Source: Promethearchaeota archaeon (GTDB lineage: Archaea > Asgardarchaeota > Lokiarchaeia > Sigyniarchaeales > SOKP01). Taken from it: 64,000 bases of DNA. The position numbers and the translations under genes were made by a program. The notes beneath the pieces are model-generated. The model was not told the DNA's origin. It did not search any database and saw nothing but the letters and a program-made list of their open reading frames with translations. Below are positions 17,716 through 47,722 of the stretch, one piece after another. How positions within the stretch are numbered: position 1 is the stretch's first letter; each line of letters starts with the position of its first letter. The DNA lies in assembly GCA_016839555.1 (NCBI GenBank), contig JAEOUA010000006.1, positions 352,001-416,000 on the forward strand, given 5' to 3'.

Positions 17716-17973
17716 GTTTTTCTTACTCCACTAATTGTGAGTATCAAAAATATAAATAGAACTATATAAATTAAAACTAAATCTTCTATTTAAAATATTC
17801 ATAAAGAGAAATTAAAATTTTCCATATAGTCATTTTCTAAAAAGATTTAAATAACTTTAATTAAATGTTATTATATATTATTCTAAACGGTTGGAATAAT
17901 CATAAACTATCCGAATCGTTTTTAGAATTTTTATTAGCAAAATAATAACAATTACTGGATAGTCTTATATAAA

Positions 17974-18402
17974 ATGTTAGGAAAAAAATATGCGTATTGC
18001 CCAAATTGTAGAACAAGAATTAAAAATCCAAAAAGAAAAAAGCTAACATCTTATAATTATCAAATATTAATTATCGCTTCGATTGCCACATTAGGAGTTG
18101 GTCTAGTAGCATTTATTCTTTATAGGTTAATATTTCAGAAGAAGAAATACTGTCCTGAATGCCAAAGTATTGTGGAATTTTATAAGTCCCCGGAGGAGTT
18201 TCCAAAAAAGGTAGCAGTTAAAAATCTGCTTGAACGGCTTGAAATAGAGAGAGTAAAAGAAAAATCTAAAGACGAAATTAAAAAAGAAGAGGATAAAGTT
18301 CTCTTAGAAGATACCTATATTATATGTTCTTTTTGTGGTGAAAAAATTGAGGCGGGTTTAGACGTATGCCCTTTTTGCGGAAAGGAACAAAAACCTTCTT
18401 AA
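17974..18402 (+). CDS. LITAF-like zinc-ribbon membrane protein with C-terminal zinc ribbon
   Basis: CPNC - hydrophobic segment - CPEC, then CSFC/CPFC. Confidence 0.7.
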   Translation: MLGKKYAYCPNCRTRIKNPKRKKLTSYNYQILIIASIATLGVGLVAFILYRLIFQKKKYCPECQSIVEFYKSPEEFPKKVAVKNLLERLEIERVKEKSKDEIKKEEDKVLLEDTYIICSFCGEKIEAGLDVCPFCGKEQKPS

Positions 18403-47213: not shown

Positions 47214-47426
47214 TTTGCTATACCTCTTTCATAAGTTCATATTATAAGCTCTTTCTTTATTCAGAGTTCTTATAAATATTATAAAAATCTTAATTTATAT
47301 AATTATTTAAACATTTTTTAAAATTTTAAGAAACCCTTTGTTATATTCTCATTAAGAATAAAATTTTTATTTTTTCTATTATATTATTTATTAAGGTTTA
47401 TGCTCCGCATTAAGCGCCAAGCCTGT

Positions 47427-47603
47427 GGTCCATTAGCTCAGCCTGGTTTAAAGGTTTCTTACAAGCTTGACTACAAGCGCAGGTCTTATAAATGACCGAT
47501 GGACATACAAAGAAAAAAGTGTCCATTCTCAATAAAAACCTGAGATCCGGGGTTCGAAATGAATCTCTGATTAAGAAATTTCATGAAAATCCCCGATGGA
47601 CCA
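47427..47603 (+). tRNA. tRNA-Ile(UAU) with three introns (47451..47474, 47492..47537, 47559..47589)
   Basis: Acceptor GGTCCAT/ATGGACC plus A73; anticodon stem CAGGT/ACCTG with loop CT-TAT-AA; T stem CGGGG/CCCCG; each insertion folds into BHB-type geometry; 76 nt after splicing. Confidence 0.85.
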
Positions 47604-47722
47604 CTCTTTTTTTCTAAATCTTTAAAATATTATAACAAAGGAACTTTAAAAATTTTTAAATTAAAAATTCCCTCATTTTTGAAAATAAGGAGAAGATTGA
47701 AATATAAACAAACCAGAACGAA

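What the first reader, a model, noticed from the sequence alone, without database searches (positions are those of the whole stretch)
47427..47603. tRNA-Ile with a UAU anticodon split by three non-canonical BHB introns
Seen: three insertions interrupt a complete cloverleaf. Intron 1 (21/22; 47451-47474): central helix GGTT/GACT, bulges TAA and ACA, helix AGGTTT/AAGCTT. Intron 2 (38/39; 47492-47537): TTAT/ATAA, bulges AAA and AAA, helices TGA/TCA and ATGGACA/TGTCCAT. Intron 3 (59/60; 47559-47589): a strict BHB with TTCG/TGAA, bulges AAA and AAT, and TGAA/TTCA. Splicing leaves 76 nt with anticodon TAT (47487-89), A73 and a C13-A22 mismatch. Known: most archaea read AUA with agmatidine-modified tRNA-Ile(CAU) made by TiaS; eukaryotes use an intron-containing tRNA-Ile(UAU) whose anticodon pseudouridylation depends on the intron. 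Inference: this archaeon may decode AUA the eukaryotic way. Intron 2 pairs directly with the anticodon and could gate its modification.
Basis: partly seen in the sequence, partly recalled or inferred. Interest (0 to 1): 0.85.

Follow-up and report, generated by a model that had tools for sequence, protein, structure and literature searches.

The report
Loki tRNA-Ile(UAU) with ACA-marked intron
This is a real three-intron isoleucine tRNA gene with the rare UAU anticodon in a Loki-type Asgard archaeon that lacks the usual archaeal AUA-decoding enzyme, and its middle intron carries a conserved, apparently undescribed ACA-tagged hairpin that may direct chemical modification of the tRNA's own anticodon before splicing.

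Summary
Observation confirmed: removing the three introns gives a 76-nt tRNA-Ile(UAU). The host is a Lokiarchaeia (Promethearchaeia) archaeon. TiaS was found in none of 161 class genomes but in 184 of 400 Asgard genomes, and the UAU anticodon arm occurs in 124/134 family genomes. UAU without TiaS is known (Nanoarchaeum, Korarchaeum, ARMAN), multi-intron tRNAs are routine in Asgard, and this scan has noted both on other DNA. New here: the anticodon intron is kept in all 107 homologues examined while the other introns come and go. It holds a covarying stem followed by an unpaired ACA at a fixed distance (103/107; ANA 106/107; other tRNA introns 1/38). Its 5' end can pair with exon G29-C32 in a fold as stable as the splicing fold. 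That geometry matches the H/ACA spacing rule and a tRNA top half, and Cbf5, Nop10 and Gar1 are present. Best guess (about 45%): the intron recruits Cbf5 to make pseudouridine 34, possibly also 36, before splicing, keeping Elp3 off U34. This would parallel yeast with a different enzyme. It is not a canonical H/ACA guide (no K-turn, no 5' pocket), and no expression or modification data were obtained.

The parts
47427..47603 (+). pre-tRNA-Ile(UAU) gene, 177 nt, four exons, CCA not encoded
   Evidence: conserved in family
47427..47450 (+). exon 1 (positions 1-21)
47451..47474 (+). intron 1, D-arm 21/22, BHB; labile (about 74 of 92 scorable homologues have a D-arm intron)
47475..47491 (+). exon 2 (positions 22-38), with anticodon TAT at 47487-47489
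47482..47485 (+). exon G29-G30-U31-C32; anticodon stem in the splicing fold, partner of intron GACC in the alternative fold
47492..47537 (+). intron 2, anticodon loop 38/39, relaxed HBh' motif; present in all 107 homologues of the two related families examined
47494..47497 (+). GACC, conserved intron 5' segment complementary to exon 29-32 (candidate 3' pocket-like strand)
47498..47506 (+). intron stem, strand preceding the ACA (P1b-like)
47507..47509 (+). unpaired conserved ACA, 13 nt after the G that can pair with C32 (candidate ACA box)
47519..47527 (+). intron stem, partner strand (P1a-like), after a variable A/U-rich linker
47532..47535 (+). ATAA, intron half of the BHB central helix (pairs U33-U36)
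47538..47558 (+). exon 3 (positions 39-59)
47559..47589 (+). intron 3, T-loop 59/60, strict BHB; labile (about 38 of 90 scorable homologues)
47590..47603 (+). exon 4 (positions 60-73, discriminator A73)
47387..47394 (+). possible archaeal TATA box (TTTATTAA); consensus match by eye only
   Evidence: sequence; not tested
47606..47614 (+). T-rich run after the gene, possible terminator
   Evidence: sequence; not tested

Best explanation
The gene makes the AUA-reading tRNA of a TiaS-less Lokiarchaeia archaeon, probably derived from Ile2(CAU) by a C34-to-U change (about 93% for the decoding role; comparative evidence, expression not shown). Introns 1 and 3 are ordinary, labile BHB introns removed by an (alpha-beta)2 EndA. 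Intron 2 is functional (inferred). Before splicing, its 5' GAC(C) pairs with exon C32-G29, and this short helix stacks on the intron stem. That gives about 13 nt of helix followed by an unpaired ACA, with U33-U34-A35-U36-A37 in the loop on top. This copies the lower half of an H/ACA guide (3' pocket strand + P1 + ACA) and the T-arm/acceptor/CCA half of a tRNA. Cbf5 with Nop10 and Gar1 would bind ACA through its PUA domain and convert U34, perhaps then U36, to pseudouridine. The RNA then switches to the near-isoenergetic BHB fold and is spliced. Psi34 would keep Elp3 from modifying U34 and limit misreading of AUG, as in yeast but with another enzyme. Shown by sequence comparison: gene, TiaS loss, intron retention, stem covariation, ACA conservation and spacing, presence of the enzymes. 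Inferred: the fold switch, Cbf5 binding, the target base, any modification.
For: TiaS 0/161 in the class against 184/400 in the phylum, controls positive; own-genome tblastn and read-through HMM negative. AUA is 36.0 per 1000 codons against 18.8 for internal AUG. Anticodon intron in 107/107 homologues against 12/17 for the tRNA-Gly(GCC) anticodon intron in the same family. ACA 14-16 nt after position 37 in 103/107, ANA in 106/107; other tRNA introns 1/38 and 6/38; ACA background in the linker 14/998 positions. The three introns without ACA all keep A-N-A, and Cbf5 reads the two A's (PMC7075261). ACA stays put when the stem sequence changes wholesale; 7 of 8 stem pairs show two-sided changes. 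In the 100-intron set, intron nt 0,+1,+2,+3 pair with exon 32,31,30,29 in 100,100,100,88; in the 77 of the 38/39 type their BHB partners pair in only 56,40,25,9. The two folds differ by a median 0.1 kcal/mol (-15.7 against -15.6 here). Spacing fits the n+15 +/-1 rule; 3'-side pairing matters most; an ACA-bearing guide can modify both U's of an unpaired UVUN (PMC7075261). Cbf5 also acts guide-free through PUA and CCA, helped by Nop10 and Gar1 but not L7Ae (PMC2018633). Cbf5 intact, Nop10, Gar1, Elp3 and two EndA subunits are present. Yeast precedent for intron-dependent Psi34 excluding ncm5U34: PMC11408192. Two Atabeyarchaeia UAU introns also start with GACC and have ACA 13 nt on.
Against: There is no upper stem, K-turn or 5' pocket pairing, all of which H. 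volcanii guides need in vivo. The ACA lies in a hairpin loop, not in a free 3' tail. The exon side of the alternative helix is invariant, so there is no two-sided covariation for it. In the second family the pairing falls to 2-3 bp in 3 of 5 added genes, and Atabeyarchaeia have an A-C mismatch there. In 82/100 introns U33 faces U, so the first unpaired U could be U33 rather than U34. The ACA is about as constant relative to the BHB bulge (13-14 nt) as to the alternative helix. UAU introns of two other Loki families (L336, L174) and of Woesearchaeota (L228, L308) lack the motif. The one control with ACA at that place is an Ile2(CAU) intron. A fused acceptor-T minihelix was not modified by Cbf5 in vitro. 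The genomes are related, so the counts are not independent; by genus, ACA is in 17 of 18.
Confidence: 0.45

Rival explanations
1. U34 and U36 are pseudouridylated by the single TruA-family enzyme acting like yeast Pus1 on the anticodon while it is paired with the intron in the BHB helix. ACA is then a determinant for that enzyme or incidental.
For: Yeast Pus1 (TruA family, from memory) needs the anticodon-intron duplex. The 38/39 register puts U33-U36 wholly in the helix. TruA is intact. It explains intron retention.
Against: Only one TruA, classed as the 38-40 enzyme. It does not explain the ANA rule, the fixed spacing or the conserved GAC that is poorly paired in the BHB fold.
Confidence: 0.17
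2. U34 stays unmodified, as in Mycoplasma mobile, and the ribosome or tRNA body prevents AUG misreading. The intron is retained only because precise loss is rare or because it shields U34, and its motifs serve folding or splicing.
For: M. mobile precedent (PMC3575796). Bacterial UAU genes found here have no intron (L216, L289, L322). Some Loki UAU introns lack ACA.
Against: Elp3 is present, and in yeast it modifies unprotected U34 after splicing. An unpaired ACA kept while the stem and linker diverge is not needed for a BHB. The Gly anticodon intron is absent in 5/17 in the same family.
Confidence: 0.2
3. The stem-ACA element is functional but serves something else: another PUA-domain or RNA-binding protein, control of splicing order, or the excised circular intron acting in trans on another RNA.
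For: Stem and ACA are strongly conserved, while exon pairing weakens in the second family. The Haloferax tRNA-Trp intron guide works in trans.
Against: The would-be pocket strands vary too much for a fixed outside target. The conserved 5' segment is complementary to this tRNA.
Confidence: 0.16
4. UAU decoding here is the inherited forerunner of the eukaryotic intron-containing tRNA-Ile(UAU), not a parallel solution (a question separate from the modification mechanism).
For: The host is an Asgard archaeon. An anticodon intron is present in every archaeal UAU gene seen here, as in yeast.
Against: Most other Asgard families keep TiaS (184 of 239 genomes outside this class), including Freyarchaeia with a listed Ile2-CAT and large-genome families I take to be Heimdallarchaeia (identity inferred from listing order, not tested). 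UAU also occurs in Nanoarchaeum, Korarchaeum and ARMAN, which suggests repeated origins. No tree or root test was run.
Confidence: 0.1
5. The gene is a degenerate pseudogene or its product is not an isoleucine tRNA.
For: tRNAscan-SE flagged the Atabeyarchaeia Ile-TAT gene as 'possible pseudo'. Aminoacylation and splicing are not shown.
Against: Mostly single-copy conservation in 124/134 genomes with compensatory changes in the anticodon stem. No TiaS or TilS alternative found. The body is closest to Ile2(CAU) genes of TiaS-positive Asgard (54-55 identical positions, against 47 for own Ile-GAU and 50 for Lys).
Confidence: 0.02

Closest known systems
tRNA-Ile3(UAU) of Nanoarchaeum equitans, Ca. 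Korarchaeum cryptofilum and ARMAN-2/-4/-5 (PMC8450103, PMC6000648, PMC3239211)
   Same: UAU anticodon replacing the TiaS/Ile2(CAU) system; anticodon-loop intron in ARMAN-2 and an intron in Korarchaeum.
   Different: Found across a class of large-genome Asgard archaea rather than scattered small-genome lineages; three introns; relaxed 38/39 intron with a conserved stem-ACA element not reported for those.
Yeast pre-tRNA-Ile(UAU) with Pus1-dependent Psi34/Psi36 (PMC11408192)
   Same: UAU anticodon with an anticodon intron in a cell that has Elp3; the intron is probably needed for modification.
   Different: No separate Pus1 found; the candidate enzyme is Cbf5; BHB-type splicing; descent from a common ancestor not shown.
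Archaeal box H/ACA guides, including Sso1/Ape7 that guide Psi35 of pre-tRNA-Tyr (PMC2651775) and H. volcanii sR-h45 SL2 that modifies UVUN (PMC7075261)
   Same: Lower stem followed by ACA/ANA, 3'-side pairing with the target, 14-15 nt spacing, an intron-containing pre-tRNA as substrate.
   Different: Those are stand-alone RNAs with an upper stem, K-turn and two pocket strands. Here the element lies inside the target's own intron, is circularly permuted (ACA in a loop), and lacks the upper stem, K-turn and 5' pocket.
Box C/D guide in the tRNA-Trp intron of Haloferax volcanii (via PMC11408192)
   Same: A tRNA intron that carries a guide for modifying its own anticodon arm.
   Different: C/D methylation acting in trans, versus a proposed ACA/Cbf5 pseudouridylation probably in cis.
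Multi-intron tRNA genes of Asgard archaea (PMC11291895; bioRxiv 10.64898/2026.10.13.758758)
   Same: Non-canonical BHB introns in the D-arm and T-loop, (alpha-beta)2 EndA, missed by standard finders. An Atabeyarchaeia Ile-TAT gene is listed in a supplement.
   Different: The preprint's main text does not mention UAU, TiaS, guides or modification; the Nat Commun main text does not mention Ile.

Membership tests
tRNA-Ile3(UAU), TiaS-independent AUA decoder | Cloverleaf with UAU anticodon and A73 | tested here: met
tRNA-Ile3(UAU), TiaS-independent AUA decoder | tiaS (and tilS) absent | tested here: met
   own genome 92% complete, tiaS in 0/161 class genomes
tRNA-Ile3(UAU), TiaS-independent AUA decoder | tRNA-Ile2(CAU) absent | tested here: inconclusive
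   No CAU tRNA of any kind was found in this assembly. No CAU version of the body among one-mismatch matches in 161 genomes. The CAU scan found Ile2-like genes in 2 TiaS-positive controls and none in 18 Loki genomes, but missed most Met genes.
tRNA-Ile3(UAU), TiaS-independent AUA decoder | Expressed, spliced, charged with Ile, reads AUA not AUG | not testable with these tools
   needs RNA data and biochemistry
Archaeal BHB tRNA introns | 4-bp central helix with cuts 2 nt into flanking bulges | tested here: met
   introns 1 and 3 hBHBh', intron 2 relaxed HBh'
Archaeal BHB tRNA introns | Broad-specificity (alpha-beta)2 EndA in the genome | tested here: met
   two subunits; one has Aeropyrum/crenarchaeal EndA as its best PDB match, including the specificity-loop region
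Canonical archaeal box H/ACA guide RNA | ACA/ANA box directly after a lower stem | tested here: met
   (ACA 103/107, ANA 106/107); it lies in a loop, not a free tail
Canonical archaeal box H/ACA guide RNA | n+15 +/-1 spacing to a target U via 3' pocket pairing | tested here: inconclusive
   fits U34 if the base facing U33 is counted (U.U in 82/100), otherwise U33; pairing weak in some f2 genes
Canonical archaeal box H/ACA guide RNA | 5' pocket strand pairing 3' of the target | tested here: not met
   the segment after the stem varies and is often non-complementary
Canonical archaeal box H/ACA guide RNA | Upper stem with K-turn or K-loop for L7Ae | tested here: not met
   none seen in alignment A1
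Canonical archaeal box H/ACA guide RNA | Cbf5, Nop10, Gar1 encoded | tested here: met
   L7Ae not searched
Canonical archaeal box H/ACA guide RNA | Pseudouridine formed at the target | not testable with these tools
   needs CMC mapping or mass spectrometry
Eukaryotic Pus1/intron-dependent tRNA-Ile(PsiAPsi) | Dedicated Pus1-type synthase beside the 38-40 enzyme | tested here: not met
   single TruA-family hit, classed as TruA 38-40

The most novel reading that the evidence does not exclude
The anticodon intron of Lokiarchaeia tRNA-Ile(UAU) is a built-in, permuted half H/ACA element (stem + ACA, no K-turn) that recruits Cbf5 to pseudouridylate U34 and possibly U36 of its own precursor through a fold that alternates with the splicing fold. 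This would be a third route to accurate AUA decoding in archaea and an RNA-directed parallel to yeast Pus1.
Probability: 0.4. Interest if true: 0.82.

Novelty: new variant of a known kind. Interest (0 to 1): 0.62.

Why it matters
How an archaeal U34 anticodon avoids reading AUG was not addressed in the papers I could search; the one prokaryotic case I found studied biochemically is Mycoplasma mobile. Lokiarchaeia have cultured members (my knowledge), AUA is a very common codon here, and the intron gives a precise prediction that can be tested with a short transcript and three recombinant proteins. If true, it adds a cis-acting ACA/Cbf5 mechanism to tRNA modification, gives an ancient tRNA intron a reason to be kept, and shows Asgard archaea reaching the eukaryote-like PsiA(Psi) anticodon by another enzyme. 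If false, the gene is simply a new member of the known Ile3(UAU) kind.

Tried and rejected
Sequencing runs: no RNA holder listed; this is no evidence either way. ARAGORN and Rfam on the unspliced gene: nothing relevant. One search used the wrong family (TIGR03280 is not TiaS) and is ignored. One search was a wasted search. One search used a stem register off by one and was redone. Loose anticodon patterns over other Asgard families were mostly noise. They gave UAU genes in Atabeyarchaeia (G155) and another Loki family (G056), but none in three other TiaS-negative groups (f19, f26/f27, f28). The candidates there were Pro(GGG) and Lys(CUU) genes, so UAU in those groups is untested here. Searches for CAU tRNAs in the own assembly found none at all. 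A canonical 37/38 register for intron 2 was rejected (C32-A35 do not pair). Considered and dropped: box C/D motifs in intron 2 (no consistent boxes seen by eye); the excised circle as a complete H/ACA guide (pocket too small, 5' side not conserved); ACA as an alternative pairing register (it persists when the stem sequence changes). The covariance model found clear hits only in the two related families among 78 genomes (strict filters, 66 candidates scored per genome, so not proof of absence). Paper searches for Asgard/Loki with TiaS, agmatidine or pseudouridine, and for UAU with Cbf5, returned nothing relevant; the library lacks most subscription papers. No complex prediction was run (protein-only tool).

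Full report
Observation. The 177-nt stretch 47427-47603 (+) is as described. Removing 47451-47474, 47492-47537 and 47559-47589 gives 76 nt that ARAGORN calls tRNA-Ile(tat); the unspliced gene is invisible to ARAGORN and Rfam. All three introns have a 4-bp central helix with both cuts two bases into the flanking unpaired stretch. Intron 3 is a strict BHB, intron 1 has a 6-bp intron helix and a 2-bp exon helix, and intron 2 is relaxed because C32 faces C40. Relatives lacking intron 1 or 3 read straight across the predicted junctions.

Host. The neighbours include an Asgard selenocysteine-system protein and SepSecS. Named records carrying the same anticodon-arm motif, some at the same coordinates as family members here, are Promethearchaeota/Promethearchaeia, i.e. 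Lokiarchaeia. The assembly is 92% complete. It encodes two EndA subunits, one matching the crenarchaeal broad-specificity type best. Multi-intron tRNAs are routine in Asgard archaea (PMC11291895; bioRxiv 10.64898/2026.10.13.758758), so three introns are not remarkable.

Decoding role. TiaS was not found in this genome by Pfam search, by tblastn with seven Asgard TiaS proteins, or by an HMM run on six frames read through stops. It was found in 0 of 161 class genomes and in 184 of 400 phylum genomes, with positive controls. No TilS passes cut-off. The UAU anticodon arm occurs in 124 of 134 family genomes. AUA makes up 36.0 per 1000 codons against 18.8 for internal AUG. Absence of Ile2(CAU) could not be shown in this assembly, since no CAU tRNA of any kind was recovered. 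Ile2-like CAU genes were seen in two TiaS-positive controls but in none of 18 Loki genomes in an insensitive scan. The mature body is a little closer to those Ile2 genes (54-55 identical positions) than to own Ile(GAU) (47) or Lys (50), a weak hint of a C34-to-U origin. A published supplement lists Ile-TAT for Atabeyarchaeia-2 and Ile2-CAT for Freyarchaeia, matching their TiaS status here (0/3 and 6/6; genomes identified by exact length). UAU replacing TiaS is known from Nanoarchaeum, Korarchaeum and ARMAN, and this scan has reported it on other Asgard DNA. This part is a new member of a known kind, best read as a parallel to eukaryotes, since most other Asgard families keep TiaS. I ran no tree test.

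Homologues were collected mainly by an exon motif. All 107 examined in the two related families have the anticodon intron. D-arm, variable-loop and T-loop introns are present in roughly 74/92, 23/100 and 38/90, and the anticodon intron of tRNA-Gly(GCC) in 12/17. Intron 2 has a fixed plan: a short 5' segment G(A/G)(C/U)C, a stem, an unpaired ACA, a variable A/U-rich linker, the partner strand, then the BHB half. The stem covaries strongly (7 of 8 pairs with two-sided changes, with the tool's caveat on relatedness). ACA starts 14-16 nt after position 37 in 103/107 and ANA in 106/107, against 1/38 and 6/38 in other tRNA introns (the controls include a few mis-called genes). The three introns without ACA have AAA, AAA and AUA. 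ACA stays in place in a lineage whose stem sequence is entirely different. By genus, 17 of 18 have ACA. Two Atabeyarchaeia UAU introns also begin GACC with ACA 13 nt later, though in a tight hairpin.

The 5' segment pairs with exon C32, U31, G30, G29 in 100, 100, 100 and 88 of 100 introns, while its partners in the BHB fold pair in only 56, 40, 25 and 9 of 77. The exon side is invariant, so this is conservation consistent with pairing and not covariation. It weakens to 2-3 bp in three of five added genes of the second family. The fold with G29-C32 paired to GACC and stacked on the intron stem has -15.7 kcal/mol against -15.6 for the splicing fold here, with a median difference of 0.1 over 100 homologues.

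Mechanism (inferred). In that fold, 13 nt of stacked helix lead to ACA, and the anticodon loop sits on top. H/ACA guides place the target U 15 +/- 1 residues from ACA, counting the 3' pocket strand and lower stem. Cbf5 reads the two A's, 3'-side pairing matters most, and an ACA-bearing guide can modify both U's of an unpaired UVUN in sequence (PMC7075261). U34-A35-U36-A37 is such a UVUN, and U34 falls at n+15 or n+16 if the base opposite U33 is counted. The arrangement also resembles a tRNA T-arm plus acceptor stem plus CCA, which Cbf5 modifies without a guide through its PUA domain, helped by Nop10 and Gar1 but not L7Ae (PMC2018633). Cbf5 (catalytic Asp and PUA intact), Nop10 and Gar1 are present. 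So is Elp3, which in yeast wrongly modifies U34 of this tRNA when intron-dependent Psi34 is missing (PMC11408192). I therefore propose that intron 2 recruits Cbf5 to make Psi34, perhaps Psi36, before the RNA refolds and is spliced. I put this at about 45%.

Against it: no upper stem, K-turn or 5' pocket, which H. volcanii guides need in vivo; ACA in a loop rather than a tail; U33 could be the first free U; ACA is about as constant relative to the BHB bulge; a rigid minihelix was not modified in vitro; UAU introns in two other Loki families and in Woesearchaeota lack the element. It works like a half H/ACA guide at best and is not a member of that family. Rivals: unmodified U34 as in M. mobile, TruA acting like Pus1, or another ligand for the ACA.

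Novelty and verdict. The gene type and the multiple introns are known. The stem-ACA element was not found in the papers I could search or in earlier scan notes on this tRNA. The scan has unverified notes on a different, K-turn-type self-guide in Asgard tRNA-Tyr introns; these are leads only, not support. Verdict: new variant of a known kind, interest 0.62; 0.82 if Cbf5-dependent Psi34 is shown.

Noticed in passing
L015 (G005:C13, about 17950-18120, minus strand): The homologous anticodon intron seems to hold a second, nested BHB-like insert in its 3' end (helix GTAG/CTAT), which would force ordered splicing.
   Followed up: no
L228, L308, L292 (Woesearchaeota, one unnamed record, Nanoarchaeales): tRNA-Ile(UAU)-like genes with longer 37/38 introns that contain CTGA and ATGATT-like words; possibly box C/D-type guide elements rather than the ACA element.
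   Followed up: no
L216, L218, L289, L322: Intronless tRNA-Ile(UAU)-like genes in records titled Gemmataceae (L216, L218) and Saccharibacteria (L289); L322 has the same body as L289, title not seen.
   Followed up: no
L252 (JBHLKM010000001.1) = G140:C1:218473: A record titled 'Candidatus Hodarchaeota' carries this gene, but by coordinates it is a member of this Lokiarchaeia family; the title should not be read as UAU in Hodarchaeales.
   Followed up: partly
phylum search: TiaS is also missing from families f19 (0/19), f26-f28 (0/12) and f9 (Atabeyarchaeia, 0/3), implying one deep or several losses; UAU genes were confirmed here only for f9.
   Followed up: partly
own genome: No ATP_bind_3 (TtuA/Ncs6/TilS-type) protein passes cut-off, so the usual U34 thiolase seems missing or divergent; the assembly is 92% complete.
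   Followed up: no
own genome: No initiator or elongator tRNA-Met was recovered, and several ARAGORN calls (Phe-AAA, Lys-TTT, Leu-TAG, Gly-CCC, Arg-GCG) look like mis-parsed genes with non-canonical introns.
   Followed up: partly
L507 (G020:C54:25900-26200); G307:C1: Arrays of intronless tRNA genes, including a CAU gene, unlike host tRNAs; possibly mobile elements or contaminating contigs.
   Followed up: no
L361, L372, L384 (G130, G105, G076): Near-copies of the anticodon-arm motif (ACCGCAGGTCTTATAA) without a recognisable 3' half, in two genomes about 11 kb from the gene; possible integration-site remnants.
   Followed up: no
window:47723-50110 (minus strand): The tRNA gene is convergent with an Asgard putative selenocysteine-system protein (NF045535) and SepSecS; no link tested.
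   Followed up: no
window:44196-45257 (minus strand): Nudix/IPP-isomerase-like N-terminal domain fused to an archaeal NMN adenylyltransferase, next to RtcA and a SAM hydrolase-like gene.
   Followed up: no
L498 (G167:C1:2079639): The one control intron with ACA at the same distance belongs to an Ile2(CAU)-like gene of a TiaS-positive genome; chance or shared ancestry.
   Followed up: no
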